Positions 40,151-63,670 of a DNA stretch of 64,000 nt are shown here, one piece after another (position 1 is the first letter of the stretch; every line of letters starts with the position of its first letter). Origin of the DNA: Podarcis pityusensis (Eukaryota); assembly GCA_964106645.2 (NCBI GenBank), contig OZ067043.1. One strand, written 5' to 3'. A model generated the notes under the pieces. That model was not told the origin of the DNA, ran no database searches, and saw only the letters and a list, made by a program, of their open reading frames with translations. Made by a program: the position numbers and the translations under genes.

Positions 40151-41439
40151 ATAAGGCAGTTTCCCATGTTGCAGGTAGTTCTACAGATACTCTTATTGTA
40201 AATGGAGGCAGCCACTCAGTAAGCTAGAACTAAAAAGGTAGAGCCAATAGGCAGCTCCTAAAGTGCAAGGATGTTTTCAGCATGAACCTTGAGATATTTG
40301 TGGTGGTAAACAAAGGAGGATTTAAAATGTATCAGAGGAGGAAATGATAGCCCTGTGAAACATTATAAATCCTTTGTTCCTTGTCTTCTTGTCTCCGTTC
40401 ATTTTTCTTACAGCCACCCCATTCATGTGCCTTTTGCTTCCTCTGCATAAAGAATTGTTAATTCTCCCTCTGCCATTCCCTTTTTCTAGCCCCAAGTATT
40501 TTTGCAGGGGCCTTAGGGCATGCCCAAGCAGCTATTCCTCTGTGTTAATGAGACTCTCTGCTTACATAGGTTATTACACAAGCTGCTTTGACTCTTCACA
40601 TTAGTCTGCAGCTGAAATAGCTTAGTTTAGACTGCTCAACCTGCCCTATCAATGCTTCTTACTTCCAGGAAAAATAAGAGTAACGGAGGGATGAGAGGTG
40701 TGGAAAAGCACACTATGCCAAACTAGAAAAGCTGACAATAGTTATGCCAATGCAAGGTAATTCCCAGTGCCTTAGGCTACAAATCCCTACACATCATTCT
40801 GAATTGGACACATCTACCCATCTTACGTGAGGGAAAGGAAGTAGATGCAGGGCTGGCTGAGGGAAAGGACAAGATGGTTAACAGGTGAAGCTTATTCCTG
40901 CATGGAGATGGGTATAGCTTCCCCTGCTGAATCTTGTGTCTCTTGTGCAGCTGCTTAGAAGTACAAGAGGCATGCAAGAAAATAAATAAATAGTAGTAGT
41001 CGTAGACTGTGGCCTGGAAACGGCCTGCATTGTAGGCATGTGAAATTATGCGGTGGGGTGGGGTAGGTGGTGCTAGCAGCCAACCATATGCCTATAGACA
41101 TCCTGGCACTGGGGCTAATAGCCATAGGCATCTGATTAGCCAATATTGGAACAGGATGCTGGGCTAGATGGGCTGCTGGCCTGATCCAACCAGTTCTTGC
41201 GTGAGGGTTGATGGGAACTAGGAGTCCAGTCCAGCAACATCTGGAGGGTCATAGGTTTTCCGTCCCTACTCTAAAACAACTGGGCAGTTCACATCCTTCT
41301 GCGGTGGGTTTGTAGTGTTACTGTGTCATTGTGCTGGTTTGATTAGGTGCCTTCCGTTTGCCGGGCTCATGGTTCTCATGACCTTTGTTACACATACACC
41401 CATCTTTTCACATTTTGCAATAAAGATGCAATTCGTGCA

Positions 41440-42660
41440 TCTCAATATCGCAGGGCGTCTCCTTTAAGCAGCGGCTCCCCCGAAAGGCGGCCAATAAGTA
41501 AACAGAGAGCAAAGGCGCGCATGCGCTTTTGCGCGGCTACTTATCCCGAAGCCTCCCTTAGAGCCTGAGCTCCCGCTTCCACCCCCCCGCCCGGCCTTGC
41601 TGCGCACGCGCGGAACCGCCCTCCTCTCTGCCCGCGAGTCTCGCGAGAAGCCGGGATTTATTCCTACGTGCTGTGCCGTGCTGCTCATGGCGGCGCTGGA
41701 GCGGGGGCGCTGAGCTGTTGGGGTAAGTGGGGTTGTCCCTGCCGGGAGGCCGGCAGCCTCCTCTGCCCGCCCGGCGCGACCTTGACGGTGGCGGGCAGGG
41801 AGAGCCGAGGGGGCTTGGAATGTCGCCTGTCACTCTGTCCCAGGGACCAACGGTCTAGCGCGGGGGGAACCCCTCCCCCACCCGCCGTGTGCCCTGCTCG
41901 TTTGACAGACGGGCGCAAAGAGGCGGGGGGGGGGCGGGAAGGGAGGGAGAAGCGAGAGAAAGGGAACCTTGCTGGGCCGAGCGGGCTCCCTCGCTCTCTT
42001 CTCTCCCCAGCTTCCGTTTGTCTCCAGGCAGGGGCCTAAAGAGAGGGAGGGAAAGGGAGCGGACTGGTGGGCCCGAACCCCGACATCACTACGGCTCCCA
42101 ATGTGCACCGCGCGACTGGCCTCCCCTCGCAGGGGCCGCTGGGGCTTGGAGTTCAGGGGCGCGGTGCTCTGGGCGGCCGCGGCGATGGAAAGCACTCCAA
42201 CTCCCGGCGCGGCGGCTGTAAGCTGCGCGGCCACTGGGCCTTCTGGGGGGTGGAGTCCTGGCACCTCGTCTTCGGCGGAGCGGAGTGGGAGACGGGAACT
42301 ACCTCTCCCGGCATGCAGCGTGCGGGTGCGGGGAGGGGAAGAGGAGGTCAATCTTCCTTTGTGTGAGGGGGAGCGGTCGCCATTTTCCTTCTCTCCCTCG
42401 CTCTACCCCCACCGCGCCCCAGCCTCGAGAGAGGGGCAGATAGTGGACACGCCCCAGGCGCCTGAGGGGAAGAACGTGCCCGTCGGTGTAACCGGCCGGA
42501 GGGGCGCCCAGGGCTGGATTCCGGCCTTGGCTCGCCCCCAGGCGCCGCAGGGCTGGGGCTTTGGGTTTCCGCATCTTTTCCTTTTCGGATGCGGACCCCC
42601 GCCCCGCAAGCGTTAGATCGCCCCTCAGTAGTAGGAGCCACCATCTTGCTGCCTCAGTGC
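41440..42660 (+). promoter_or_regulatory. CSDE1 CpG-island housekeeping promoter
   Basis: CCAAT at 41491; NRF1 palindrome GCGCATGCGC at 41517-41526; BANP/ZBTB33-type TCTCGCGAGA at 41639-41648; YY1-like ATGGCGG at 41687 and CGCCATTTT at 42378. Confidence 0.88.
41640..41722 (+). other. CSDE1: CSDE1 exon 1 (5'UTR; start approximate)
   Basis: ...GCTGCTCATGGCGGCGCTGGAGCGGGGGCGCTGAGCTGTTGGG|GTAAGT, close to the mammalian CSDE1 exon 1 as recalled. Confidence 0.85.
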
Positions 42661-43149
42661 CATGTGCTGTGGCTTTCTTTAATGTGATGCTGCGGCACAG
42701 GGTGGAATGGCCACCCGTAGCTCCTTTCGCTCATGTGGGCAGCGGTAACGAAGCTGAGGAAACAGACGATTGTCTGGCACCGCTCTGCGGGCGTCAGAAA
42801 TCCGTTTTGAGTGCTAACCCTACAACTAGGCAATTCAATTCATTTGCTGCAATATAGAACTATAAAGCCATTGTAATCAGATCTCTCAGCAATATTTTGA
42901 GGCTTTCTTCAATTATTATTACATGCTGCCTAACCAACATATTCGCCCTTTAGGTTATAAGCTTTAAATATGGGTGCAGTCTGATCCGTAAGCCCCCTTT
43001 AAGAATAAAGCCTTCTTAATTCTATTGATGCCTTTGATTTGCTGGTGACTTTGTCTCCAAACGATGACTATTTGCTGATTTACTCAGTGGGAAAGGGGTA
43101 TATAACAATACTGAATTCATAAAAGCGATATTGAATTGCAGTGCACTCC

Positions 43150-45927: not shown

Positions 45928-46319
45928 TATGAAGTGTAACAGAACAGAATTTACCACCTGAAACTGCTGCTTCAAGTTCAGATCAGGAAAGGAACACATC
46001 ACATCGTAACAACAAAACAAGACCAAAGAAGAGTAAAATTTACACTGAAGACACAACACTTGATCTGAAACAAGAAGTTTGTGCCTACTCAACAGCTTCA
46101 AAAGAGCACGTCCCAACGCTGCTAGTAGTCTTTGTTTTCTTCAGTGCTGTGCTGAAACTGCCCAGTGCAGCACCAGTTATTCCTTATTAGCTTGATAGAT
46201 CACTTGTCTCTTGCTATCTCTTTTTTTTAACAATAGCAATCTTCAAACTTTGAAACGTGTGCTGAAACGAAGAATTCGCGAATACTACTGAAAGTGCAAT
46301 ATTAGAATATCACTGCGAG
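45928..46319 (+). other. CSDE1: CSDE1 exon 2, 392-nt 5'UTR exon (region of the reported UNR IRES)
   Basis: Strong acceptor TTTGTTTGTTTTCTCTCCAG; TATGAAGTGTAACAGAACAG...ATCACTGCGAG|GTTGGT closely resembles the human CSDE1 5'UTR as recalled. Confidence 0.88.
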
Positions 46320-46998
46320 GTTGGTGCATGTACTCGTTAAAACAGTAATAGATACTGGAATTAAAACTACTGTTTGACATGAGTTTAAATAATGCTTTTA
46401 TTTAAATCCTGACTGCCTTCATTTGGTCAGAATATCAAAAGCAGAGCTAACATCTGGCTGTGGTGCTTATGTTTTTAAATGATTCGAGTTCATCAGTATT
46501 GCCATTTGGTTATATTTGCTGAGCTAACTGTGGAATGCAATCTTATCATTGTAGCTATTTCATTAAGCTTTCTGCTACTATTTTCTAGTTTCTCCCTTTT
46601 GAAATCAGTTTACTCTAATGCTATAAGTCTGGATCTCAAACTTTCTCCATATCCTTCTCCCAATTACTAGTATCGGTCAGTGAGTCTCCATTTCATAAGC
46701 TGATAGGTTTAAATGTTAATTGTCTGCTATAAGGACAGCTGAATTAATAGTAACCATGAGTTCAGTTAGCATCCAGCTTCTGCTCTCCATTTCAGAACCC
46801 CTCTTGAGGTAAAATAAAGCTATTAAATGCTTCCTTAACTAGCACATCAATCCCTTCTTGTCTTAATATGTTAGGAGGCTGCCAGAATGGCAGCTTTTTA
46901 TGACACTGGATAAGTGGCAGATATACATTGACAAGGTTGTCTTGTTTGATTTTGTTATATGCAGCATTATAAAATTAAGTTGAAACAGGCGTAAAAAT

Positions 46999-47124
46999 AT
47001 GGCAAGCACCTGGAAAGAATTTGTTGAATTTTCCATGCCGTCTTCTCCCCCTACTGCATACGTTAGTGCCAACCTGGGCAATGCATCTCCAGTCGGACTG
47101 AATTTATCACCTTATGGCCAATCA
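46999..47124 (+). CDS. CSDE1: CSDE1 alternative upstream coding exon A (MASTWKEFVEFSMPSSPPTAYVSANLGNASPVGLNLSPYGQS)
   Basis: ATG in good Kozak context (AAT ATG G); 42 open codons ending exactly at a GTAAGT donor in phase 0; in frame with 49081 and 50892. Confidence 0.72.
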
Positions 47125-49080
47125 GTAAGTTCTTTTGCCATACTAGCAATATTCTTAAGGGTAAAGCCAAGCTAGCTCAGATGGTGTGATGCAACAACCT
47201 CCTTTGAGCAAAAAAAATGTGGCCAGTTTGCAGATTACTAGCAGAAACGTCTGCTCATTTTGGAACCTCTTATTAAACAAAGCATCCTATAACCCTGCCA
47301 GAGTGCAGTGAGCAGGCTAAAACACTCTTAATTTGACAGTTTCAGTTTGAAAATCATTTCACACTCACCCCTCATTCCCAACCATTCTTTTCATTGGTCA
47401 TTGTACCAGGCCTAGTTCCTGTTTCAGGGCAATTGGTTACCTCTCCAGCTGTTTAAAATCAAAACTACCCTAATACTTAGATAATTTTGGGTTTCTTTTG
47501 TTATTTCTCTGGAAAACCCCAAAACAGAGTGATCCAAAGCTTCCTTCAAATGGCCAAAAGTAGTCGATTCAAATTTTTGAGCCTTTTTGAAAATGAGCAG
47601 AGTATACATCTGCCAAATTTTCTTGTCTGTGACAACTCAATGTCTAGCTGGAATACGGTTGATAGCTAGTTAGTTGAAACATGTCCATCCTCAGCCTTTA
47701 CTAGCATGGAAATTGTTCAGGGGTTCTCCCCAAAAGCCTTTTAAGATTGGCAGCGAACTACTAAGTTTAAAAGTTTATGTCCTTGAGAGACAATGTGTTT
47801 GTTCTCATGTCTAGCATAGTTAAATGCTGGGGAAGGGGCTCTCTTCAATCCTCTAAAGACTTGTTTATTATTCAATAATGAAATGGAAGAGTAGTTGTGA
47901 TGCCATAAAGCATAATTAGGCAAAATTCTCAAGCCTCAAGATCGTATTTCAAAATAATTGAGGGCTGCCAATCCCTGGCAGCTTCAGTTAAAAAGCCCTT
48001 TCAACAGGGCTGAGAAAGACCTTTGTTTTAAATAACATTCAGCAGCTGCTGATCAGTAGCACTGAGCTAGATGGACTAATATTCTGATACTTTATAAGGC
48101 AAATAATATTCTTAAAATAAGAAAAAAATCCAGAAAAAAAGATTCTAAAATATCTTGTTCATTGCCCTAAAAACCCTGAAAATGACTGCTACTGTACATC
48201 AGTGTAGGAATTTCTTTCCTGCATTATGGATTTGACATAGTAAACAGTAAACCAGCAACTGTTCATGAATACAATACTGGTGCAACATGCTCTGTAGAAT
48301 AGAGGCTGTAAATTGTTGTTGGAGCAATTTCACTTCAGTTCATCTCTGTGCCATACAGTTGATGTTTGCTTAAATTTATTAAATAAAGGTTGAGGAGAAC
48401 TGAGACCAGCTGTTATCTTGCTGCCAATGTTCCTGGTGTCCTAAATTTAGTTAATGACCAGTTTTGAAGTGCTCATTACTTGAAATTCAGGTACTAGTCT
48501 CTCTTCTCCAAATCATGAGAAGGAAAGAAAGACTTCTCCTGAACCCTTAGGGTTAATGAGCACAGATAACATAGCGTTATCTGTGTAAAATTCCAGTTTT
48601 TGAATTGTTACTGTGTGTATGTACTCTCTAGAACCTATGTAACAAGCAGTTTTTCTGTGTCACATTAATAGTGCCAGTTCTTCTTCTATCCCTTTCAGAT
48701 GGGAAAATATAAAATGCTATTATAATTCTATCTGGACATACTGTTTGCTTCAGTGCAAGAACATGCAACATGTTCCAACTCTTAGCTCAATTCATAACTC
48801 AGTTATTTCAAATGACACTTCTCCCTTGTGAGTACTTTTGTGTAAGAGCTGGTCAGAGTTCTGGTAGTATGAGCAAAGCAGAACATTGTTGGAGAGGAAT
48901 TGACCTAGAAATAGTGCTTGCTAATACTATTTATACTGTAATCCTATTTTTAAAAAAGAAATTTGGATTGATTGCTTTCGACTTCCAGCTCTCTTGAGAA
49001 ATGGAATTTGATAATTACTTGGATGTGTTTAAAGATGTGCTAACTATTGACTAGTTATACTGTGTACTATGTTATCACAG

Positions 49081-49230
49081 CTGTATGAGATGGAGAACCA
49101 TTATACTGTGTCATCAGATCCTCTCCCCCCTCCTGCAGCTCCCCCTCCTTCTCATCCTTTACCTTTCTCTTCATCTTCTACTTCATCCGGGTCTAAAAAA
49201 CAGAAGAGGACCCCTCTTTATCAGAGATCT
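49081..49230 (+). CDS. CSDE1: CSDE1 alternative exon C, N-terminal extension (LYE-MENHYTVSSDP...KKQKRTPLYQRS)
   Basis: 150 nt with CACAG acceptor and GTAAGT donor; resembles the N-terminus of the long human isoform (MEN..TVSSDP...KKQKRTP.YQRS) as recalled; in-frame ATG at 49090. Confidence 0.88.
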
Positions 49231-50891
49231 GTAAGTCAGGGCAACTTGACAGACATGGAATCTTAGCATGGGGATCCTTTGCAGTTAACTCATCTCTGTA
49301 TATGTTCTCACTTCTAACTTCACTGATATTAAATCTCCTCAACAGGTTAAAGGATAAAATTCCACTTGAACCAGCTGGAAATCTTGCTGGGTTCTTAAAA
49401 GGTGCTTTCCTGTATCTGTTTCAGAAACTTAATGAAAGCTTGGTCATGTGTGTGTATGTGTTGCAACTTCATTTTATTCATTCTGATAAGTTGATTGAAT
49501 GTATCTTGCCCGCTTAGATTTATTTTCCTAATTCTTTGAAAGAATGATGGCATAGATAATATAAATTCTACTTGACACACTTGTAATAGGAAACAGTTTA
49601 TAGCAAGCACCTTCTCCAGATGCATTAATTTCTAAGTAGGGAGTTGTTGCATCTTATGTTGCCAAAAAATGAGTTGCAGTATATCTTAGTGCTTTTTGGT
49701 TGGCATGTGTACAAGGGATTTCTGTTCTTGTTTCTTTGCAAGAAGAGAAATGACCACTATTCTGTATTTCATAATGTTATCTTAGTGCCTGTACTAGTTG
49801 ACAAAAAACCAAAGCCTCTTTCAGCCCAATCCTATACTCAGAAATCCCACTGAGTTCAGTGGACCTTGCTCCTAAGTAATTGTCCATAGGAGGATTGCCC
49901 ACATGCATCTCCAAAAGCTGTATGTGGGCTTAGAATCTGGCATTGTCCTTGGTGGGTAGGTCAACTCTGATTAATAATGATGACAGCAAAGGGCATTATT
50001 TCCAGCATAATGAGTAAGGATCTGTTTGGTTATAACTGTGCAGTTAGAATATTGTGTTTAGAGCTTCTTACACATGGAACTTTTGTACGCTTAATGGCTC
50101 CTTGGAGTTGCAGGAATTTTAGGTTTGCTTTCTTAAACAGATACACAGGAAACTGCAACATATCTGTAAAATATATGGTCTCAAAATGCATGATTTTGGC
50201 AATTTCTTGCCTTGAGCCCTTTGACTTGCATGATATGTTCACTGATTCTTCTAACAGCAAAAGTTAAATGATACCCTAATACTAACTTATCTCTGGATTT
50301 GATTTAACTTAAGATAGCAAAATTGTTTTTAAAGCATATTTATATCTATGTGTTTCTAGAAGATTAATGAGAATTCAGCAGGGCAGTTTTCCCTGTTTTC
50401 TGGCATTAACCAATGCATTTATGGATAGAGAAGGAGCATTTAAGCTGAAGGAGTACAGCAAAGAATTATGAAAGTTCATAAGATATTAGGCCTCCAGTTC
50501 AACAAGGGTAGAGTAGGTGCTAATGGAAATTGCCTTAAGATTAGCAAGCTTTTGTCTTTGCTTTCTTGGTAGCCTTCTTTGGCAAAGGCAAGTTTATACT
50601 AATGACTAATTTTGAATAAAGTATTAACTTTATTCTGTATATAATGGGAAAATATAATGCTATATTTGCTATATTAACCGCATATAGATAAATCCTACAA
50701 GGTAAATGTGGTTTCGTTACTGATGGATCTCAGCTAGACAAATAGTGTACACAAGCTGTGCCTTAGCTGCCAGAAACTTTCTTGCTTATCTGATGCTCTT
50801 TAATGCACAATATGTGTTCTGTGTTCCCTTAAGTATGGAAGGTGATGGGAATTGCTTTTGGAGGCTTTCACAAGTTATCTTTTGCTTTCAG

Positions 50892-51090
50892 ATGAGCTTT
50901 GATCCAAACCTTCTCCATAACAATGGACACAACGGGTACCCCAATGGTACTTCTGCAGGACTGCGTGAAACTGGGGTTATTGAAAAACTGCTGACCTCCT
51001 ATGGATTCATTCAGTGTTCAGAACGGCAAGCTAGACTGTTCTTCCACTGTTCACAGTATAATGGCAACCTACAGGAGCTTAAAGTGGGAG
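50892..51090 (+). CDS. CSDE1: CSDE1 main start exon (cold shock domain 1)
   Basis: MSFDPNLLHNNGHNGYPNGTSAGLRETGVIEKLLTSYGFIQCSERQARLFFHCSQYNGNLQELKVG; the ATG is the first three bases of the exon. Confidence 0.97.
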
Positions 51091-51349
51091 GTAATTCGTC
51101 TGGTGGAATTCTCTGGGTTCATAACTGAGGCTCTTTACATGTGTGATGAAGATTAGCACCTCTTAACACTAGAGATGTGTCTGCCTAGTCAATAGTAGTT
51201 AAACCAACCATTAGATGAGAGAGCCAAAGTGAGGCCTTGTGTTTCAATTTATGATAATTTTTTGTTTTAGTTTCCCATTTTCTGTGGATTATTTTTATGT
51301 ATACTGCTTAGAAATGCAAGTAAGTAATATAGAAATGTCATAAATAAAT

Positions 51350-51393
51350 GATTGATTGATAGATAGATAGATAGATAGATAGACAGATAGATA
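51350..51393. repeat. (GATT)/(GATA)n microsatellite
   Basis: Direct inspection. Confidence 0.9.
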
Positions 51394-52666
51394 GGCTTAA
51401 CTATATGGATGCTTCTATGATGAAGCTATATTGAGTAGAGTATCGTAGAAACTGGTTTCCCATACTGTGTTCTGGGAAGCTCTTCCTTGTTCTTCAGTAG
51501 AATGGCTGATAAGTTTGCTCACCACTACAGACTGCTATCAGGGTGGGATGTAGGGCTCATGTTAATCCCCTTATTTACTAACTGCATGGCCAGGCTATTT
51601 GTTTCCTGTGTACAGTTAAGTGCTGTTTTTAACTTCTAAAGCCCTAAATGGTTTGGAGCCAGGCTATAATAAAGGCCACTATCTTCTGTATAATCCTGCC
51701 CAAGAACTGAGGTCTTTCACAGAGGCCCTTCTCACTGACCCTTCAACAATTTCAAAAAGTGATAGTCCTTGAGGGCCATTTCTGGGATGGCCACCACCTC
51801 TAAAATTCTGTCTCTCAGGCAACACTTAACTGCCTGTCTTTAGGAGGATAGTTTAAATAGAAAAGTTTTATCAGACATTTGTGCTCTTGCTTGGGCTGCT
51901 GTGAGTTTTACTGTTTTCTACTGGTTTTTAGTGCACACTGCTCTGATCTCACAAAGGAAGATGATGATACAAATTATGTAAAATAAATATTTTTTTCCAT
52001 TGCACTGTGCAGCTACAGGAGGCAGTTGTGTGTGTTCTAGAATGCACTCAGTTTTTCTCTGGCAGGGCTGGAACACCTGTGGCTCTCAAGGTTGACTGAG
52101 CTACAATTCGCATAACTCATTACCATTGGCCAAGCTGGCTGGGGCTGATGGGAGTTGATATCCAACATATAGAGGGACAGAGATTCAGTATCCTTCAGGT
52201 AGAGCAACAGTGAGGCCCAATCTGTGTGCCCTCACAAGGTAATTATGGCCCTAAAAATACAAGAGCCCTGCTGGATCAGACCAAAGGCATATTTAATCAA
52301 TTATTCTTCTCACAGTGGCCACCTAGATGCCTTTGGGGACCCTAGAATTTGTTTTAGCTTTTTATAACACTTAGAGTTGTTTTGGTAGATGAAGAAATGT
52401 GGTGGAAAATACCTCCAGTGTCATAAAGTTGTGAAACCAGTGGACTAGAAGAATGGGCTGTGAATGCTGTACAGAAAGAGCCTCTCATTTTGCCCACTCT
52501 GAGTTCATGAGCCAGATTGACTGACCGAGGAGAATGCAGTCATGTTTTAAATTGTTATTTTGATCTTAGCATGCATGTGCAAGATAAATGCCACTGACTG
52601 AGATCCAGGGGAACCATTTACATGCAAGCAACTCATTGGGCTTTTTTGTAGTTTTCGAGAGTTCTA

Positions 52667-52797
52667 TCCTCAGGCAATCCTCCCTGTCTCCAATACTACA
52701 CAGCCTCAAAAGCAGTCTTAAATTTGAACGCTTAATGCAAATTTAAGACTACTTTTGAGGCTGTGTAGTATTGGAGACAGGGAGGATTGCCTGAGGA
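52667..52797. repeat. Near-perfect inverted repeat (60-bp arms, 11-nt loop)
   Basis: 52667-52726 is the reverse complement of 52738-52797 at 59 of 60 positions. Confidence 0.95.
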
Positions 52798-52883
52798 AAG
52801 GTAAAGCTGTGCTTGCGAATTATTCCTGTTAAGTGTTACTAGACTGGTCCTGTGTCATTGATAAAACTTCAATTGCTTTACAG

Positions 52884-52993
52884 ATGATGTTGAATTTGAA
52901 GTATCTTCTGACCGGCGAACTGGAAAACCGATTGCTATTAAACTGGTGAAGATTAAAACAGAAACATTACCTGAAGAGCGAATAAATGGACAA
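52884..52993 (+). CDS. CSDE1: CSDE1 coding exon
   Basis: (D)DVEFEVSSDRRTGKPIAIKLVKIKTETLPEERINGQ; AG/GT boundaries. Confidence 0.95.
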
Positions 52994-53344
52994 GTTAGTG
53001 GCTATGATAAGCTTTTTCCATGCATGCGATTTGCATCTGCTGTGGTCAGACAAACAAGGGCAGAGTTGAGTGTAGCATGCCTCTCCTTGGTTGCATAGAA
53101 ATATTTTTCTCAAATTTAATTTTTTCCACTTGTTTTGGCAAGCGCGTAAAAATTGGGGTTTTACCTAACCAAGAACAATTCTTACAGTTGACAAAAGTAC
53201 TGTAAGATATAAGCTTTGCAGCATGGCATACTGTTGTGGGTTACCTGTAAAGTGCATCCCCAAGTGTATTATAGAAAACTAACAGTCTGATGCATAATGC
53301 TGCCTCTGGAAATAATTAGCAATGGATTTTTTTTTGACTGGTAG

Positions 53345-53437
53345 GTTGTGTGTGCTGTTCCTCACAACTTAGAGAGTAAGTCTCCAGCTGCCCCGGGTCA
53401 GAGTCCAACAGGGAGTGTATGCTACGAACGTAATGGG
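53345..53437 (+). CDS. CSDE1: CSDE1 93-nt frame-preserving exon (alternatively spliced in mammals)
   Basis: VVCAVPHNLESKSPAAPGQSPTGSVCYERNG; phase 0/0; weak donor GTAAAA. Confidence 0.95.
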
Positions 53438-53854
53438 GTAAAACTTATGTATTTACTTAAACTTTTTGACTGATCCTCCAATATGATTTAAACTAAAATA
53501 CTTGCCAGAGTAGACAGTGAAAAAACTGTACTTGCTTTAAAAAGTTAAAATTTAAATTGCTAAAAACTTATTTATTGAAATAGAAAACATCTGACTTCAT
53601 GTTTTGACTGTAATTATGAAATATTTTCACAACTTCAGTCTAGAATTATATGGCTAGTTAAAATGAAGCAGAAAAGTTAACTGTTTACTAAAGTCTTCAC
53701 TGTGACTATTTTTTAGTTTCATAAAATGCTAATAAAACGTCAGATATTCTGCACACTTCCCAAGTTCTGAAACGCAGAAGTTTAAACTAACCAGGACTTT
53801 ATAAATTTGTCTACTCATAGCAAAATATTAATGATACCAAATTTTAATTCACAG

Positions 53855-53952
53855 GAAGTGTTCTACTTAACTTATACCCCAGAAGATGTTGAAGGAAATG
53901 TACAGCTGGAAACCGGAGATAAAATTAACTTCATTATTGATACAAATAAACA
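53855..53952 (+). CDS. CSDE1: CSDE1 coding exon
   Basis: EVFYLTYTPEDVEGNVQLETGDKINFIIDTNK(H). Confidence 0.95.
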
Positions 53953-54427
53953 GTAAGTAGATACCTTGTCATGACTGAATCCATGTTGGCTCTAAGGTAG
54001 TAAAGTTCTCCAGAAACTAATGTTATTACTTGAGTTGAAGTATACTTCGCAAACTTTGCAAAGGCCATTCAGATCAAGTTTCTGAAGATGCTTTGTTCTT
54101 GAGTGGTTATTAAAATTGCTAGTCAGTTTGTCTTTTTCTTTCATCGACAAATGGATAATCTGCAGTACAGCTATCTAATAGGAAACTTGCTTTTTTTTTA
54201 GACCTAAATGTGAATGTGTACTTCAAGTAAAGAGATTGTAGCAGTGTGATGTTTTCATCTTAAAATATCTTGGTCATAACGAAAGGAGACTTATGTATTT
54301 CCAGTTTGTAGAATAGAATTTAGCACATTAAACATATAAGGTGACCCAGTATTGCACCAACTCATGTAACTCATCCCTCCTAGCCCGTCCCCGTCCCCCC
54401 CCCAAAATCTGCTCTGGTGGGATAAAC

Positions 54428-54665
54428 TAGGGTTTCCATATGTCTGGGAATTCCCGGACATGTCCTTTTTTGGGAGGAAATTTACATTTTAAAGCAGATG
54501 TCCTGGATTTGGGGTTTAATTTTGTGTGTGTGTGTGTGTGCGCGCGCGCATGCACGTGCTCAGACAACCTGGGCTTGGCGGCGGCAGCGGAGCTATCAGG
54601 CGATAGCCCTAAAAACATCAATTTTTTGTGTCCGAATTTTTACTTCTTGAAATATGGCAACCCTA
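54428..54665. mobile_element. hAT (Blackjack-like) MITE
   Basis: TIRs TAGGGTTTCCATAT...ATATGGCAACCCTA; flanked by the direct repeat GATAAAC. Confidence 0.8.
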
Positions 54666-54782
54666 GATAAACACAACTGGAGTCACTCATAGAATTTAAG
54701 AATCATTCTGTATTTGGCTGTATTGTGATAAGTCATTGAATTATATTTTCCTTGTGTGACCTTCATCTACTTTTTCCCATAG

Positions 54783-54864
54783 TACTGGTGCTGTAAGTGC
54801 TCGTAACATTATGCTTTTGAAAAAGAAACAGGCTCGGTGTCAAGGAGTAGTTTGTGCCATGAAG
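54783..54864 (+). CDS. CSDE1: CSDE1 coding exon
   Basis: TGAVSARNIMLLKKKQARCQGVVCAMK. Confidence 0.95.
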
Positions 54865-55225
54865 GTAAATTAACACTTAACTACTTTCTGTAATTTACTT
54901 GTACAGTTACGGAACCATGTAGGAGTGGAGGAGAAGGTGTATAGACTTATTCTAGTACTTTTGAGACAGAACTTCCATGTAAGGTTGCTTGGGAGTAAGT
55001 CTCATTGAACATTAGATCTTGCATCTGAGAGAGCAGGCATTAGATTGGGCTTTGTATAATTCACTCATTCCTCCTGTAAAAAGTTTTTATGTATGCACAT
55101 TTTTAGCTGTAGATCTTTCTTATAACTATTAGTCACCAAAAAAAAAGAAAAAATGTTTTTTTCCAGCTAGGTGGATATAGATCATGATAGCATCTTTTTG
55201 CTTAACAATCCTATTTTCTTCTTAG

Positions 55226-55354
55226 GAAGCCTTTGGATTCATTGAAAGAGGTGATGTTGTAAAGGAGATATTCTTTCACTATAGCGAATTTAAAGGTGAC
55301 CTAGAAGCCTTACAGCCTGGTGATGATGTGGAGTTCACAATCAAAGACAGAAAT
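55226..55354 (+). CDS. CSDE1: CSDE1 coding exon
   Basis: EAFGFIERGDVVKEIFFHYSEFKGDLEALQPGDDVEFTIKDRN (cold-shock FGFI/FFH motifs). Confidence 0.96.
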
Positions 55355-55512
55355 GTAAGACCAAATTTCTTAACTCCAACTTAAATTGTAAATGCATGAC
55401 ATTGCAGGATCTTCCTTAAATGTCTCCATTAGATTTGTATGTTGTTTGACCTATTGTTGGTCCTTGTAACTACTTAACCAGTTGACTATTTGGCTTAATT
55501 TTCTGCTTATAG

Positions 55513-55638
55513 GGTAAAGAAGTTGCAACTGATGTAAGACTTTTGCCTCAAGGAACTGTTATTTTTGAAGATATCAGCATTGAACACTTTGAGGGAACAG
55601 TAACCAAAGTAATTCCAAAAGTACCCAACAAAAATCAG
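55513..55638 (+). CDS. CSDE1: CSDE1 coding exon
   Basis: GKEVATDVRLLPQGTVIFEDISIEHFEGTVTKVIPKVPNKNQ. Confidence 0.95.
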
Positions 55639-55882
55639 GTAGAAAATGTCTTACATTATTGTGTACAGAAATTTATTTGTAAATGTTTATTTTAAAGTAC
55701 TTTGATAGTCTGTGACACTGAGCAAATTCAGTAACGGGAAACAAATTGGGTAAATCATTAATGAAAGAGGCATCCTTGGGTGCTACAATGGAAGATGGAA
55801 CTTGTTCAGCTCTCAGTTGATGTTTTAAAACTGTAAAATCCTGGAAAGCTCTAATATGGCCTTTCTTTTGTACTCTGATCAG

Positions 55883-56095
55883 AATGACCCATTACCTGGG
55901 CGTATAAAAGTAGACTTTGTGATTCCTAAAGAACTTCCATTTGGAGACAAAGATACAAAATCAAAGGTGACGCTGTTGGAAGGTGACCACGTTAGATTCA
56001 ACATTTCAACAGATCGGCGTGACAAATTGGAACGAGCCACTAATATTGAAGTTCTTCCCAATACTTTCCAACTCACTAATGAGGCTAGAGAAATG
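55883..56095 (+). CDS. CSDE1: CSDE1 coding exon
   Basis: NDPLPGRIKVDFVIPKELPFGDKDTKSKVTLLEGDHVRFNISTDRRDKLERATNIEVLPNTFQLTNEAREM. Confidence 0.96.
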
Positions 56096-57318
56096 GTAAG
56101 TAATTAAAATGCATGCCATGTCTACTTTCATAGGAGTATGTTCCATAGAACTCAGAATTACAGCACAATTCTATAGAGATCTACTCGGATGTAAGTGTTC
56201 TACACAGAGAAATAGGATATAATTACTGTTGTCTCATTTAGCACTGCTGGTACTGTAGAATGATGCTAGATTTATGTAGCAATGAACACTGAAATAGTCC
56301 TGAGAAGTTGTCTGAATCTTCAGCATGTTGCATTTCTCTTGGCTACGTGAGGAATTATTTTCCAAGGAAGCCTTTGATAGAAGATGCGGCGAGCTGCAGT
56401 TTTACAGAATTCTAACTTTAGTTCTATATGTCTATATACATACTATAAATACATTTCTATGTGCACAATAGAACATCCTCATTCTCTGCTGTCCCCTCCT
56501 GCCCTTGTGCACCCTCAGATTCCCAACCTCTGGGTGGTTGGGAAACCCCCTGGAGCAGATTTGGGGGGTGGGGTCCTGGTGGTGGAGAGGAAATGGAAGT
56601 CATTTATTTTTTAGATAAGTGACCAAGAAATATAATAATAAGCATGACAATGGGAGGGCATTCCAGTGCTGAATTGCTCCCATGGAGAAGGGAGTACATG
56701 AAGCTTGCATTTGTAAAATAGAAAATTTTCTGATTTACAAAACCCATTTTAAAGGAAATGTGTAGCAGGAATTGCATTGAAATCCTTCTGTTGCCTCTTT
56801 CCACTTTATCTCAGTTTTCTGAAAGTTTTGCATCTTAAAAACTGATGTTAAAATTCAGAGAGCAATTTGAGCTTAACCTCAAAGGCTTGCAAGTTCAGAG
56901 CCATGTTGGGACTTGTACAGCTAGTTGCACAATGTTTTGAATCCTCCATCTGAGAATACAGTTATTTTCAATGAATAATGCCTCACAGTTTTTTCCACTC
57001 TGAGGAATTAGAGTGAGAAAAGGAAGAAAAAGCTTTGTGGGAAGGAAACAGTTCACTGAGATATTGTCTGCTTGCTCTGGATTTGTCTTAGAGTTTTCCT
57101 AAAAACTACCATTTATCTGAGTCAATAAGCTTTTTATGCTCTTCCATTGTAGGGTTTTTCTGGCCAGGAGAGGGGGGAGTGCTGGGCACAATTACTGCCA
57201 TAGACGTGTCATTATTTTATAACATTTATTTTTCGCTTGGTTCACATGTGGCTTGAGTTCTCTCATTGACTTATTAGGCTGATGACTGTTTTTTAAGGCA
57301 TGGAGAGAATGCCTAGAG

Positions 57319-57517
57319 GTGGGGGTAGGCAACCTAAGGTCCAGGGGCCGGATGCAGCTCAATCAGCTTCTCAATCCAGCCCGCGGATGGTCCAGGAATC
57401 AGCGTGTTTTTACATGAGTAGAATGTGTGCTTTTATTTAAAATGCATCTCTGGGCTATTTGTGGGGCATATGAATTCGTTCATCCCCCCCCCCATAGATT
57501 AGATAGATTAGATAGAT

Positions 57518-57552
<35 letters not shown>

Positions 57553-57619
57553 TCTGGCCCCCCACATGGTCTGAGGGACAGTGGACCAGCCCACGGCTGA
57601 AAAAGGTTGCTGACCCCTG
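57319..57619. mobile_element. hAT (Charlie-like) non-autonomous element containing a (GATA)n tract
   Basis: Exact 8-bp TSD GCCTAGAG at 57311-57318 and 57620-57627; ends GGGGTAGGCAACCT...AGGTTGCTGACCCCTG. Confidence 0.82.
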
Positions 57620-57677
57620 GCCTAGAGCATTGTGGACTAGATGGTATTCTGTTGTACCTGACAGATATCCTCTAAGG

Positions 57678-57801
57678 CAGGGTTTCCCAAACTGTGTTTG
57701 GACTACAGTTCCTATCATCCCTGACCACTGGTCCTGCTAGCCTAGGGATGATGGGAGTTGTAGTCTGAAAACAGCTGGAGACCCAAGTTTGGGAGTCCCT
57801 T
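57678..57801. mobile_element. hAT MITE related to the 11501/13997 family
   Basis: Exact 8-bp TSD CTCTAAGG; shared core CATCCCTGACCACTGGTCCTGCTAGC..AGGGAT.ATGGGAGTTGTAG. Confidence 0.85.
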
Positions 57802-57827
57802 CTCTAAGGATTCTTCATCAGCTATAG

Positions 57828-58064
<237 letters not shown>

Positions 58065-58169
58065 TGACTTACTATGCTTCATTATTATCTTTCATCTAAT
58101 AAGATCTCAAGATTGCTTACTGTACTAATTAAAGCAGAGATAAAACTAATAATGAAAACAGCCAAATAA

Positions 58170-58472
<303 letters not shown>

Positions 58473-59217
58473 TAGACAAGGAATATATTTATAAACATTC
58501 TCTGGCTGAAGATAACGGTTTCCGTACTTTTATATTTCATGTGTCCTTTGAGATGGATAAACACACATATTGCAACAAGATAATGGAAGTTTAAAAGCTG
58601 GTCTTGCAAGTGTGTCTAAACTTGATTTACTTAGTGTGGTTGCAAGGTTTGGGTTTCCTATAAGCATAATGTAGATTCTTTTTGGTTGTAGAAATAAACA
58701 TAGGTGCTGAATCTTAGGAGCATCTCTCTGCTATGAACTTACTCTTATACCAAGTATCTAGTTGAAACATACCTGTTGCATTAATCTTCCTCATTGCTAA
58801 AATAGTTTAGGGCTTTTAATTAAATCCTGATTACACTAATGCTGGCAAGATCTCTGTTCAGTGGAAACTAGGTAATATATATTTCAGAAACTGGTCATGA
58901 GTTACCTAATTGATACTACTTTCCTGTATAATCCCAAGTAGAAAAATATAGGATAGGCTTTCTTGACGTTCCAACAGTGATTGGTTATACATCATGTTTA
59001 AAAATGAGGCGTTTCCCTGTATGAATACATCTGTGTCAAAACTAGTGAATTTCATGATTACAAAACTTAGTATATTTTCTGCCACTGAATACCTATGTTC
59101 ACACTACCAGTTCACATTTGTATTGACTGTCAGGCTGTGGTCTATTGGAAAAAAATTAAATTCCTTCAGTTTTGATCCTTTTGTATTTTATTTCCTTCCC
59201 CGCTGCCCCACTTTTAG

Positions 59218-59325
59218 GAAGCTGAAGAGGGAATAATTGCTTATGATGATTGTGGGGAGAAGCTGACCATTCCCTATCAGGCTAAGGATGTGGAAGGATC
59301 TACTTCTCCTCAGATAGGAGATAAG
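59218..59325 (+). CDS. CSDE1: CSDE1 coding exon
   Basis: EAEEGIIAYDDCGEKLTIPYQAKDVEGSTSPQIGDK. Confidence 0.95.
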
Positions 59326-59927
59326 GTAATATGCATACTGTTTTTAAAAATGTAAGAATGCCCATGATTGGGTAAAATACTTCTAGAGATCCTTCTTGGT
59401 TTTTCAGTTTTCACTATCTGTGTTGATTTGTAATTATTACCTTGTTACCTTCTTAATATTATTAGGGTATACTGAGAACTGGTGCATAGTTGTGGCCTCT
59501 CTTCAGAAATTGAGAACCATTCAGGCTGTGAACCTTACACCAACATCTTGTGTCCCTGGATTAAGATTTGTTTAAGGCTGCTTTTGTGTAATATATTTTT
59601 TAAAAAATAAGATCTCAACAAAAAACAATGGTGTCACTGTGAAAGACTGTTGTGAATTAGTATGTGAATCCCTTCTCTTGTTTGGCTACAAAATGAGACT
59701 GCTGACGTTCAACTTTAAATGGCATAATAAGAGAGTACTGACTTCAACCCTTGAGAATTGAATAGCCTCAGTGAGGGGATTTTCAAAAGCGAGCTAATAC
59801 TACCATAAGTTGTTTTCACTGCTGAGAAAAAGCAAAATGTCCCATTAGATTACTTCCAGAAGTGCATGTGATCTTCCCAATCCTTCTAGAAGGCATTTTA
59901 TTTTGTCTGATATCTTTTCCCAAATAG

Positions 59928-60103
59928 GTTGAGTTTACAGTCTGTGAAGTGAAGAGAACTGGGTTGCAAACAGCTACATCTGTAAGAATGCTTGGTAGAA
60001 ACTACAGTTCAAAAAGGCTTTTAGGATATGTGGCAACTCTAAAGGATAACTTTGGATTTATTGAAACAGCCAATCACGATAAGGAGATTTTCTTCCATTA
60101 CAG
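59928..60103 (+). CDS. CSDE1: CSDE1 coding exon ending at a GC donor
   Basis: VEFTVCEVKRTGLQTATSVRMLGRNYSSKRLLGYVATLKDNFGFIETANHDKEIFFHY(S); CAG|GCAAGT. Confidence 0.93.
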
Positions 60104-60891
60104 GCAAGTTGATTAGTCTAAGAGTTTGTTGCACATTAAATCAGGTATGGTACAGGCCAGATGAAGCAGCTTCTATATGGTCCATACAGCAGCACACAGG
60201 AGTCTCCACATCACCACTGACTGTTACTTTAGACTACTAACAGTAATGTGGAGGTGCTCTGTATATTGGAAGGGGGTCCATGTGGTCAGCTCTTGCATCA
60301 TGATGTCATGTGCTGCAGTCCCCATATGGAAACCGTTGCCATCTCATTTAAGTGTGCTCCAGTGGTTCTGAAAAGTGGGAACCTCCTTTGGTGTACATAG
60401 AACCTCTGGAAGGAGGATGAAAATTTCCAGTGAGGGCACAGAATTCTGAGACAGGTGGAGTCTTCCTTCACCAGCCATAACAATTGGTTGAGTTGAATGC
60501 CTGCTAGCAGAAGATACACATTGACTCATAATTGGACTTCTGACTGTAACTACTGCTCCCCAAACAGGTTTAGGATGATGTGGCAGAAGCTTTGTTCCAC
60601 TTGTATAATGCCAGTGCTGGATTAGTGTCTGGATCCCCAGATCTTTGCACACAGTAGCAAGCAAGAGTCCCTGTGCATCCTGCTGTGGAACAGATGGTTA
60701 ATACTGAGTTGGTTGGTTTGCAGGGTAGAATAGCATGCTTTGTCTGCTCCCCGCAGACTGCATGTTAACCTTAATGTGAAAAAATCTTCCTATAATCCTA
60801 AAAAAGTGGAACATGAGTGCTCTATGCAGCAGGGATGGAGAATCTCAGGCCTAGGTGCCCTGCAAGCCTCTGTCTGGCTCATGCTGTACAG

Positions 60892-61179
60892 CAGGGACGT
60901 CCAGCTCCCAAGAAACAGCGATCTACTCCTAGAAAAATAAACTGGCAGTGATCTGCCGTTGGGCGGGGAGTTCAGAGTTGTTGAGTGTTTATAATTAAAA
61001 TGAATCGCTCACCAACAACACAGCCGCTAACAGAAGAACACACACTAAACACAACGCAGGGAGAGACCATGGGGGGGGGGGAGACGTGATTCTAAACGTG
61101 AGCGATAAGGATCCCACGATCGACCACCATCACCCGGGGATCGACCTGTCGGTCACGATCCACCGGTTGGACACCCCTG
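60892..61179. mobile_element. hAT non-autonomous element
   Basis: Ends CAGGGACGTCCAGC...GGTTGGACACCCCTG; TSD CTGTACAG/CTATACAG (7 of 8); CpG-rich interior. Confidence 0.75.
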
Positions 61180-61199
61180 CTATACAGCAACAGACACAC

Positions 61200-61363
61200 T
61201 CATTGGTATACTGCTGCACCAGAAGCGGTTTAGTCATGCTGGCCGCATGATGCAAGATGAGCGCCACACCCCATAGTCGCCTTTGACTGGACATAACTGT
61301 CCAGAGGTCCTTTACCCTTTGACTGGACTTAACTGTCCAGAGGTCCTTTACCTTTTACCTTTA
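61200..61363 (+). mobile_element. Sauria SINE-like 3' fragment
   Basis: GCTGCACCAGAAGCGGTTTAGTCATGCTGGCC...GACTGGACTTAACTGTCCAGAGGTCC with an (ACCTTT)n tail; the terminal ~36 bp is tandemly duplicated. Confidence 0.7.
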
Positions 61364-61448
61364 CAAAGCTTATCAAAAGTATTATTCCAGTGTATCTGTG
61401 TATCAAGTTAAAGACCTTTCAGTCACTGGCAATAGCAAAATAGATATA

Positions 61449-61673
61449 CAGTGGTACCTCGAGTTACAAACGTCTCAGGTTACAAACTCCGCTAACCTGG
61501 AAGAGTTACCTCAAGTTGAGAACTTTGCCCCAGGGTGAGAATGGAAATCATGTGCTGGCGGCGCAGCAGCTGCAAGAGGCCCCATTAGTGAAAGCACGCC
61601 TCTAGTTAAGAACAGTTTCAGGTTAAGAATGGACCTCCAGAACAAATTCAGTTCGTAACTAGAGGTACCACTG
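61449..61673. mobile_element. Tc1/mariner (Tigger-like) MITE
   Basis: TA|CAGTGGTACCTCGAGTTAC...GTAACTAGAGGTACCACTG|TA. Confidence 0.88.
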
Positions 61674-62159
61674 TAGCTTTGATATATTGCTCTCTAAACT
61701 GGACTACAACTCCCATTGTCTCTGACTAGTAGTTGTGCTTAGTTAGGCTAATGTGAGTTGTACAGCATATGCTGAGGGCATAGGTTTTTTGCTCCTATAC
61801 TAGTGACATAAACATCCCCAATTTATATATGCTGCATATTCACACTTTATAAGCTTATTCTGATTTACACAAATAATGGCTGATGTAAAAAATACTCATG
61901 GAAGATCCATTTGTAATGTTATTGATAGTGGCATGCTATGGGTGTTGCATAGGGCTCTTATATAAAGTAAACATTTGGCTTCCTATTAATAAATGAGGTC
62001 TTCTACATGATATGCAGCCTGCTGCACTGAACGCTTGAAAAGAAATTAGATTCTCAAGATCATCCCATTTGAATTGGTTTGCTAAAAATGTAAATTTGTT
62101 GGGATGGCATTCTTGGTTACATTTATGCATACTCAAGATTTCTTTATAATTGTTTGCAG

Positions 62160-62272
62160 TGAATTCTGTGGTGATATCGATAGCCTGGAACTTGGCGATA
62201 TGGTTGAATACAGCTTATCAAAAGGCAAAGGAAACAAAGTCAGTGCAGAGAAAGTGAACAAGACACATGCAG
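62160..62272 (+). CDS. CSDE1: CSDE1 coding exon
   Basis: EFCGDIDSLELGDMVEYSLSKGKGNKVSAEKVNKTHA. Confidence 0.95.
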
Positions 62273-63550
62273 GTAAAGCTGTTTTTAAATTTCTTTTAAA
62301 GCCAAATATTGGTCCTCAAATGGTATGTACTTGGTGCTGACAATTTTGTGGATGCCTGCTTGTTGCATTTATCCCAGGTTTGAAAAACAGGAACTTAATT
62401 CCAGCCTCGGACTGTTCCACTGTAATGGTTTATTATCCAAAACTAGAAGTGAGAATTAGATCTGTCTTGGTTTCCTGAGGGCAATTCTTGCTTAGAAACA
62501 AGGCTAATTACAAACCTGTTCTATTAGTGTTTTGGATTAGATAAAACTAACACATATATGACATGAAAAGCAGGACAAAGGGGACAAATAAGTTGACAGC
62601 AACTGCTGCAACTTCTACTGCTGCAACTGTGAAAGCAGTGAAAAGCTTGCATTTTAAAGCGTAGCCTTCTTGCTTGGGAACCCCACAAAGGATTTTGTCA
62701 AGTGTGGAGTACAAATCAATCAATCATGATATCATAATGATGTGTGATTGGCAGATGGCTGGCTCCATGTACCTGTCATATTTGGTCTGTGAGGTTGATC
62801 CTGATCAGGCTCTAGCCCATGAAACCCAAAAGGTTCCTCACCCTTGCTATAAAGTGTTGTTTGGCTCTGTATTCCTATATGGTATTTTGACTGAAGCGTG
62901 GGAACCTTACTCTCTTCATATGAGTTGCAGATTCTGATATAAAATATTTCGGAACACTGTATTGGAAACTGAATAGCAAGGATACAGAACTAAAAAACTT
63001 TACCCTATAATTGCCACAAATTGGAGAATTGCACTACTCAATATTGGGAAACAGTGCAGTAGAAAAATTGACAGTGTAGCTACCCAGTGAGCTTATTTAA
63101 ACTTCTGTGCTAGAGATGTAGTGTTACATCTTAGAATGTATGTGGGGAGTTGCACATTGGAATGTGATTCCCTCAGGTTCCATATACAAGGAAAACGTGA
63201 AGTGCATAGCTAGGTGTACTTTGTGCCCTTCCCAGACATATGAAGAAAAGCCAATACTGACAGTATGTGGATGAATTACTGTTTTCAGAATTATCAGAGA
63301 CTTTCCCATGACATCTAGTGATGTACTACTGTGTTTCCAGATAGCAAATATTAGGAAAAAAATATTAAGGGCTAGCTTTCTACCTAGATTCCATTTCCCC
63401 CCCTGCATTTTGCAAACCTGCCGCTTTTAGATTTCCATACCTTTAGCCATGGTACGACAGGTTTTACTTGATACAGGGTGACTCTGCTAAGCTCCATAAA
63501 GTTCTTTGGGAAAGATGGCCACTTGTAATGCGGATGACCTTGTTTTATAG

Positions 63551-63670
63551 TGAATGGCATCACAGATGAGGCTGATCCAGCTGTTTACACGGGTAAAGTA
63601 ATTCGTCCTCTCAGGAGTGTAGATCCCACCCAGACTGAATACCAGGGAATGATTGAAGTCATGGAAGATG
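63551..63670 (+). CDS. CSDE1: CSDE1 coding exon
   Basis: (V)NGITDEADPAVYTGKVIRPLRSVDPTQTEYQGMIEVMED. Confidence 0.95.

What the first reader, a model, noticed from the sequence alone, without database searches (positions are those of the whole stretch)
46960..47130. Hidden upstream coding exon giving CSDE1 up to a 92-aa N-terminal extension
Seen: a 42-codon ORF, too short for the ORF track, starts at a strong ATG (46999) and ends exactly at a GTAAGT donor in phase 0. It is in frame with exon C (LYEMENH...) and with the main ATG, which explains why exon C is open upstream of its own ATG. Candidate acceptors end at 46964 and 46988, or it could be an alternative first exon. The peptide has three SP motifs and an aromatic WKEFVEF motif. 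I recall similar N-termini in predicted fish Csde1 proteins (unverified). Inference: an ancient, little-studied isoform with a disordered, phosphorylatable extension.
Basis: partly seen in the sequence, partly recalled or inferred. Interest (0 to 1): 0.75.

Follow-up and report, generated by a model that had tools for sequence, protein, structure and literature searches.

The report
Ancient CSDE1 start exon, mammals lack

Summary
A 42-codon frame (46999-47124) has a strong ATG and a phase-0 GTAAGT donor, in frame with exon C and the main CSDE1 ATG.

It is coding. Against a fish ortholog, synonymous divergence is 0.74 and non-synonymous 0.14. All 29 distinct orthologous peptides, from squamates to teleosts, align over 42 residues without gaps and keep 19 invariant positions.

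It is not hidden. NCBI models already carry it, joined to the main ATG exon (42 aa) or through exon C (92 aa in squamates), including models matching this window.

New here: it is better conserved than exon C, and it was in 0 of 44 mammal and 0 of 21 turtle models read, which suggests lineage loss. Birds, crocodilians and sharks were not seen.

Most likely it is a cassette exon whose start codon overrides the main one and adds a Ser/Pro-rich docking tail. The acceptor, tissue, disorder, phosphorylation and partner are untested: no junction reads or structure models were obtained. Nine literature searches found no paper on it.

The parts
41688..41728 (+). 3' end and donor of the probable first (CpG-island) non-coding exon of CSDE1; GTAAGT at 41723; holds a short upstream ORF
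   Evidence: GC about 0.60 at 41001-43000; sequence read directly; donor position. Exon status is inferred.
46200..46325 (+). 3' part and donor (GT at 46320) of the probable upstream 5'UTR exon ('exon 2'), the likely upstream splice partner of exon B
   Evidence: Donor context; no ATG in 45997-46316. Its identity as the conserved Csde1 5'UTR exon is recalled and inferred from position, not aligned here.
46770..46795 (+). Acceptor candidate ending 46795: best matrix score, but it would bring five upstream ATGs into the exon
   Evidence: Rank 1 of 41 AGs, 8.3 bits; uATG list
46835..46874 (+). Acceptor candidate ending 46874, with a branch-like motif at 46835; 124 nt before the ATG, similar to the fish spacing (126 nt); three upstream ATGs
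   Evidence: Rank 7 of 41, 3.9 bits
46928..46964 (+). Preferred acceptor candidate ending 46964: branch-like motif at 46928, T-rich tract, 29-nt AG-free gap, no upstream ATG in the resulting 160-nt exon
   Evidence: Rank 4 of 41, 4.8 bits, within the 1.1-11.0 leave-one-out range of 16 coding acceptors. Use is not shown.
46999..47124 (+). Exon B coding part: 42 codons from a strong-context ATG
   Evidence: orthologues; pS 0.74 vs pN 0.14 against L001
47125..47132 (+). Exon B donor, phase 0; the first 8 intron bases are identical in the fish locus L001
49081..49230 (+). Exon C: 50 codons with its own ATG at 49090; ortholog of the 46-aa extension of human CSDE1 isoform 3; one model uses an internal acceptor at 49203/49204
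   Evidence: P0036; P0244 = NP_001123995.1
50892..51090 (+). Exon D: begins with the canonical CSDE1 ATG and encodes the start of the first cold-shock domain
   Evidence: tblastn 100% identity; Pfam CSD and CSDE1 domains in the full protein

Best explanation
The stretch 46999-47124 is a conserved coding exon in frame with CSDE1, likely spliced in as a cassette between the 5'UTR exon and exon C or the main ATG exon, where its strong start codon would override the main one and add a 42-, 51- or 92-residue tail predicted to act as a phosphorylation-gated docking motif. Shown: frame, start context, donor, purifying selection on codons, and presence in automated models of squamates, amphibians, coelacanth and ray-finned fish. 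Inferred, step by step: (1) inclusion through an upstream acceptor, 46964 preferred; (2) scanning ribosomes start at 46999 (A-3, G+4), while the main ATG becomes internal with T at -3; (3) the two invariant blocks, W5-K6-x-F8-V9-E10-F11-[ST]-[LM]-P14-x-S16 and G33-L34-x-L36-S37-P38-Y39, bind a partner that retunes CSDE1 messenger-RNA complexes, with S16-P and S37-P as proline-directed kinase sites and S/T12 placed for primed GSK3 phosphorylation; (4) the exon was lost in mammals and, separately, in turtles, which kept exon C with its own ATG.
For: Coding: against L001, 23 of 37 nucleotide differences are at third positions; 16 codons differ synonymously and 13 non-synonymously; pS 0.74, pN 0.14, Fisher p 6.5e-10. 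The two other forward frames hold stops in both species. 38 distinct substitutions average BLOSUM62 +0.26 against -0.65 for random single-base changes, reached by 0 of 10000 draws. All 29 distinct peptides align without gaps, with Ser at 42. Breadth: 28 hits among 33 candidates, all 28 starting with the peptide; 400 hits among 437 candidates with the sturgeon peptide, 120 listed. Among long models starting with it, 135 join directly to the main Met and 34 go through exon C or part of it. It is more conserved than exon C in 7 of 7 comparisons (0.67-0.95 vs 0.50-0.64). Cassette: L001 has a probable upstream exon donor at about 215 and one dominant acceptor at 1140 (rank 1 of 48 AGs), 126 nt before the ATG; the window has acceptor-like sites and only 4 CpG in 46320-47000; the same species also have models starting at exon C or at the main ATG. 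Motif: S37-P38 in 29 of 29 peptides, S16/T-P17 in 28 of 29, S/T30-P31 in 26 of 29, S/T12 in 29 of 29. Loss: 0 of 44 mammal and 0 of 21 turtle rows have it, while 34 and 8 of them have exon C; the turtle 'X1' rows are 843 or 796 aa and start at exon C or the main Met.
Against: No junction reads, ribosome profiling or peptide evidence was obtained; splicing rests on automated gene models, which can be propagated by protein homology. The codon test uses one ortholog pair. The upstream flank does not align between window and L001 (BLASTN covers only about 46994-47132), and the acceptor matrix is home-made from 16 sites and does not single out 46964 (rank 4 of 41). The peptide has no Pfam, PDB or Atlas match, so the docking role has no direct support; its hydrophobic share equals the folded core's. 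Loss is judged from annotated proteins only: 15 members were listed from clusters of 362 and 134, 280 of 400 hits were not listed, and no mammal or turtle DNA was examined. Seven rows carry a second label naming a ferret; their first label is tilapia and they score like the other teleost rows, so I treat that as a mislabel.
Confidence: 0.6

Rival explanations
1. The same coding exon, but transcribed as an alternative first exon from an intronic, tissue-specific promoter, so the extended protein escapes the structured 5'UTR and upstream ORFs of the usual transcript.
For: No single dominant acceptor near the ATG in the window; a TATAAAA at 46968-46974; the upstream flank is not conserved with L001.
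Against: L001 has one strong acceptor 126 nt upstream (rank 1 of 48). The TATA-like word would put the start site at about the ATG itself (own knowledge of the usual 25-30 nt spacing). The region is CpG-poor.
Confidence: 0.17
2. Cassette exon whose peptide folds back on CSDE1 itself: its V-E-F-[ST] strand mimics a strand of the cold-shock domains and pairs with one of them, changing RNA binding or domain packing rather than recruiting a partner.
For: V-E-F followed by T, S or E occurs 5 times in the core, within the cold-shock repeats. V9-E10-F11 is invariant in 29 of 29 peptides. The hydrophobic share is as high as the core's.
Against: It is a 3-4 residue likeness. The peptide has no Pfam CSD or PDB match. 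The optional 50-60 aa exon C spacer changes the linker length freely.
Confidence: 0.12
3. The exon mainly regulates amount: its start codon and UTR change translation efficiency or protein half-life (new N-terminus, phosphodegron), and no new partner is gained.
For: Start contexts differ sharply (B strong; main ATG G-3/A+4 after exon 2). The Csde1 5'UTR tunes translation (bioRxiv 10.1101/2020.06.29.165878, passages). The Ser-Pro-Pro-Thr cluster resembles a phosphodegron (recalled, not tested).
Against: 19 of 42 residues, spread over two separate blocks and including W, F, F and Y, are invariant from teleosts to lizards, which is more than a start-codon effect needs.
Confidence: 0.09
4. A conserved non-coding element or an annotation artefact: the open frame is incidental and never translated.
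Against: pS 0.74 vs pN 0.14; conservative substitutions; start context and donor conserved in fish, with similarity ending at the exon borders.
Confidence: 0.02

Closest known systems
Automated NCBI/UniRef CSDE1 isoform models of squamates, amphibians, coelacanth and ray-finned fish (e.g. XP_008108069.1, XP_048352169.1, XP_064425290.1, XP_073765276.1)
   Same: They begin with this peptide; the B-D, B-C-D and B-partial-C-D forms are all present.
   Different: These are predictions with no function or tissue attached in what I saw; their RNA support was not visible here.
Human CSDE1 isoform 3 (NP_001123995.1, 813 aa) and the 843-844 aa mammalian models, with the exon C extension
   Same: An optional upstream coding exon gives CSDE1 a Ser/Pro-rich N-terminal tail; exon C here is its ortholog. 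A heart/muscle cassette exon of human CSDE1 is reported (PMC2764345; bioRxiv 10.1101/2025.07.02.662769; passages). That this is exon C is my inference.
   Different: Exon B lies 1.96 kb further upstream, has an unrelated and better conserved peptide with aromatic residues, and was in none of the 44 mammal rows read.
The six mammalian CSDE1 protein isoforms reviewed in PMC11005786
   Same: [quoted passage not shown]
   Different: The passages describe mammalian isoforms only; Figure 4B could not be seen.
Short linear motifs: PAM2 (PABP MLLE ligand), WxxF-acidic (AP-2 ligand), RVxF (PP1), SIAH degron PxAxVxP, GSK3-primed sites
   Same: Partial likeness of W-K-E-F-V-E-F-S-M-P, P-T-A-Y-V-S and S/T-x-x-x-S-P; all consensus patterns are recalled, none comes from a call.
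   Different: PAM2, RVxF and SIAH spacing or anchor residues do not fit most orthologues by eye. WxxFxE and the GSK3 spacing fit but carry little information.

Membership tests
Conserved protein-coding exon of CSDE1 | Open frame continuous with the CSDE1 frame across canonical splice sites | tested here: met
   Phase-0 donor at 47125; exons C and D start in phase 0
Conserved protein-coding exon of CSDE1 | Purifying selection on codons in orthologues | tested here: met
   pS 0.74, pN 0.14, p 6.5e-10 on one pair; 29 gap-free peptides, 19 invariant columns
Conserved protein-coding exon of CSDE1 | Spliced transcript observed | tested here: inconclusive
   No reads were laid; only automated models show the junctions
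Conserved protein-coding exon of CSDE1 | Translation observed (footprints or peptide) | not testable with these tools
   The two supplements of one zebrafish phosphoproteome paper gave protein-level Csde1 rows only and no match to two exon-B motifs
Cassette exon | 3' splice site upstream of the ATG | tested here: inconclusive
   Clear in L001 (rank 1 of 48); several middling candidates in the window
Cassette exon | Both inclusion and skipping forms exist | tested here: inconclusive
   Models with and without the exon occur in the same species, e.g. Anolis, Rhinatrema, Danio, but an alternative first exon would give the same proteins
Alternative first exon | Own promoter and capped 5' ends | not testable with these tools
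   CpG-poor, 4 CpG in 681 nt; no CAGE data; the only promoter scan offered is bacterial
Mammalian exon-C extension isoform (human isoform 3 type) | N-terminus starts at the exon C Met | tested here: not met
   Exon B forms start 45 codons earlier with an unrelated peptide
Disordered tail with a short linear motif | No folded domain; low predicted order | tested here: inconclusive
Disordered tail with a short linear motif | Conserved motif islands and a binding partner | tested here: inconclusive
   Two invariant blocks; no partner test was possible
NOVA-regulated neural exon | YCAY cluster downstream of the exon above background | tested here: not met
   9 in 300 nt, reached by 261 of 2000 shuffles; L001 10 in 230 nt, reached by 158 of 2000; 2 of 69 window tiles have 9 or more

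The most novel reading that the evidence does not exclude
Bony vertebrates have carried for over 400 million years a CSDE1 isoform with a dedicated phospho-regulated docking module, nearly as constrained as the cold-shock domains. Mammals and turtles lost it independently, so zebrafish and Xenopus express a CSDE1 complex with no human counterpart, and work on these models, including a start-codon morpholino that would miss this isoform, has overlooked it.
Probability: 0.3. Interest if true: 0.6.

Novelty: already known. Interest (0 to 1): 0.36.

Why it matters
The sequence is already in automated annotations, so this is not a new gene part. The comparative picture is what I did not find in print (9 searches). 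[quoted passage not shown] A 42-residue tail that keeps 67-95% identity between lizard and seven frog, caecilian and fish proteins gives a sharply defined bait for that question in zebrafish or Xenopus. If the loss in mammals and turtles is real, it is a case of repeated loss of a constrained module from a conserved RNA regulator, and a caution for using fish and frog Csde1 as stand-ins for human. A specialist would find it useful and mildly surprising, not paradigm-shifting.

Tried and rejected
RNA evidence: the run search gave 'no RNA holder listed', and no reads were laid, so junctions, acceptor and tissue stay open.

No whole genome is held for this window.

Family searches: Pfam gave 0 families for the peptide; PDB gave one chance hit at E 0.58; the ESM Atlas best score was 0.76, below the lead level. 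The last 2 of 19 hits are unrelated long proteins and were dropped.

Splicing-factor motifs: six motifs in four flanks gave no significant excess; the YCAY excess vanished against shuffles. The bacterial promoter scan does not apply to a vertebrate and was ignored. The first acceptor matrix had one mis-picked training site; it was corrected, whose scores are the ones used.

It concerns 3 codons, and one turtle and two mammal models also read through them (P0229, P0211, P0267). In paddlefish and bowfin the stretch is 10 codons, which fits the argument better. Acceptor 46988 is disfavoured (rank 13 of 41, 9-nt AG gap).

Other: recalled motif matches (PAM2, RVxF, SIAH) did not fit by eye. Earlier scan findings: none. 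Supplements of bioRxiv preprints are closed and figures are not held, so isoform diagrams or junction tables there were not seen and could describe this exon.

Full report
OBSERVATION. The ATG has A at -3 and G at +4, and GTAAGT follows at 47125 in phase 0. Exon C (49081-49230) has 50 open codons and exon D opens with the canonical ATG at 50892. The gene is CSDE1: full models carry CSD, CSDE1 and SUZ-C Pfam domains and map exon by exon onto 50892-63999. The exon C peptide is identical to that of Anolis and Tiliqua models, so the window is probably from a squamate. From the window alone the pattern is only suggestive: 175 of 2000 simulations give a loose version and 2 of 2000 the strict one.

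IT IS CODING. The lizard peptide found 28 proteins among 33 candidates. All 28 start with it, at 79-100% identity, from gecko and agama to frogs, caecilians, coelacanth and sturgeon; 27 carry cold-shock domains and one is a 122-aa Xenopus model. The sturgeon peptide found 400 among 437 candidates; the 120 listed are ray-finned fish and coelacanth. Across 190 of the 288 proteins then held there are 29 distinct peptides. All align over 42 residues without gaps, end in Ser, and share 19 invariant columns; the 38 distinct substitutions average BLOSUM62 +0.26 against -0.65 for random single-base changes (0 of 10000; this null ignores mutation bias). A metagenome scan gave one orthologous genomic locus, L001, teleost-like by its peptide (1 confirmed of 54 pattern matches). 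Against it, 23 of 37 differences are at third positions, pS is 0.74 and pN 0.14 (p 6.5e-10), the start context and first 8 donor bases are conserved, and similarity stops at the exon borders. Exon B is more conserved than exon C in 7 of 7 lizard-to-other comparisons (0.67-0.95 vs 0.50-0.64) and somewhat less than exon D (0.83-0.98).

IT IS NOT HIDDEN. NCBI models already use it, including isoform X1 of Anolis, Pantherophis, Tiliqua and Gekko. Models whose names the tool withholds (P0030, P0036, P0037, P0040) match the window's exons essentially exactly and show three forms: B-D (42 aa), B plus the last 9 codons of C (51 aa) and B-C-D (92 aa). Among long models starting with the peptide, 135 join directly to the main Met and 34 pass through exon C or part of it. 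These are automated predictions. No junction reads were obtained here, so splicing is not directly shown.

DISTRIBUTION. None of 44 mammal rows (monotremes, marsupials, placentals including human isoform 3) and none of 21 turtle rows has exon B, while 34 and 8 of them have exon C. Four rows with withheld names and one row labelled as a bacterium were left out of these counts; they also lack it. Turtle 'X1' rows start at exon C or the main Met; that X1 is usually the longest model is my own knowledge. Squamates and amphibians have the exon, so absence in mammals and turtles would need two losses. The limits are real: only annotated proteins were read, 15 members were listed from clusters of 362 and 134, 280 hits were not shown, seven tilapia rows carry a second ferret label that I treat as an error, and no bird, crocodilian or shark appeared in any listing.

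CASSETTE OR FIRST EXON. L001 has a probable upstream exon donor at about 215 and one dominant acceptor 126 nt before the ATG (rank 1 of 48 AGs), so the layout exon 2 - short intron - exon B is likely shared. In the window a matrix built from 16 coding acceptors ranks 46795 first, 46964 fourth, 46874 seventh and 46988 thirteenth of 41. 46964 has a branch-like motif 36 nt upstream and yields an exon with no upstream ATG; 46795 and 46874 would add five and three. I prefer 46964 but cannot show it. The region is CpG-poor. No splicing-factor motif was enriched, so the tissue is unknown.

LIKELY MECHANISM. When exon B is included, its ATG is the first strong in-frame start. No ATG lies in the 3' part of exon 2 that was examined (45997-46316), and after exon B the main ATG has T at -3, so inclusion would switch the output to the extended protein. 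The tail has few charges (7%), is 36% S/P/T and 31% hydrophobic, and matches no Pfam family, solved structure or Atlas cluster. Its invariant residues fall in two blocks around W5-F8-V9-E10-F11-P14-S16 and G33-L34-L36-S37-P38-Y39. S37-P is kept in 29 of 29 peptides, S/T16-P in 28, S/T30-P in 26, and S/T12, four residues before S16, in 29. Conserved aromatic islands flanked by Ser-Pro sites are typical of phospho-regulated linear motifs (own knowledge), so I commit to a docking tail that changes which complex CSDE1 joins. My estimates: coding exon about 0.97, cassette about 0.8, docking role about 0.7 given those. Rivals are an intronic first exon, fold-back of the V-E-F strand onto a cold-shock domain (the same triplet occurs 5 times in the core), and control of amount only.

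LITERATURE. Nine searches combined CSDE1 or UNR with isoform, N-terminal extension, alternative or cassette exon, zebrafish, Xenopus, lizard, muscle, phosphoproteome and morpholino; they showed no paper on this exon. The library lacks most subscription papers. I saw passages only, no whole text. PMC11005786: six mammalian isoforms differ N-terminally, roles unknown. PMC2764345 and bioRxiv 10.1101/2025.07.02.662769: a heart/muscle cassette exon of human CSDE1, which I infer is exon C. PMC5892948: an N-terminal extension of Csde1 seen by ribosome profiling in erythroblasts, start not given in the passages. PMC10267514: a truncated proteoform. PMC11216927: skipping of the CSD2 exon. bioRxiv 10.1101/2020.06.29.165878: the hyperconserved structured 5'UTR. 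PMC10652045: zebrafish mutant and ATG morpholino. PMC11808059: Csde1 phosphorylated in fin regeneration; passages plus a term search of 2 supplements gave no peptide sequences. PMC5291280 and PMC6986143: nothing on isoforms in the passages. Unseen figures and closed preprint supplements could still show the exon.

VERDICT. A real, ancient coding exon, correctly spotted. It is already present in automated annotation and, as far as I could search, undescribed in print. The apparent loss in mammals and turtles and the two motif blocks are the parts worth following up. Interest 0.36.

Noticed in passing
window 49185-49212: One NCBI model (P0036) joins exon B to an internal acceptor in exon C, keeping only its last 9 codons (51-aa extension); the site scores poorly (-2.6 bits).
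   Followed up: partly
L001:195-225 and the zebrafish csde1 ATG morpholino in PMC10652045: By eye, the morpholino target spans the junction of the UTR exon and the main ATG exon, so isoforms starting in exon B or C would likely escape it, whereas the exon-5 mutant would hit all forms. Inferred.
   Followed up: partly
L001:1257-1295: An out-of-frame ATG 10 nt before the exon B start opens a short overlapping frame; upstream residues of other teleost read-through models (P0183, P0188-P0190) suggest it is shared. The window has none at that place.
   Followed up: no
window 49069-49090: An in-frame ATG lies 12 nt inside the intron before exon C, and a turtle model (P0229) starts at the equivalent place; an out-of-frame ATG at 49085 sits just before exon C's own start.
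   Followed up: no
window 41688-41714: A short upstream ORF of 8 codons near the end of the probable first exon, read directly.
   Followed up: no
window 49237-49536: Two QKI-type motifs downstream of exon C (0.5 expected per 300 nt), in line with the reported muscle/heart cassette exon if that is exon C; not significant on its own.
   Followed up: partly
window 46968-46974: A TATAAAA word 25-31 nt before the exon B ATG; it would place a start site at about the ATG itself.
   Followed up: partly
window 28001-29000: A second GC-rich island (GC 0.61), probably the promoter of a neighbouring gene; not examined.
   Followed up: no
rows P0108, P0117, P0118, P0125, P0129, P0134, P0143: Tilapia CSDE1 models carry a second source label naming a ferret; this looks like a database mislabel that could fake a mammalian exon B.
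   Followed up: partly
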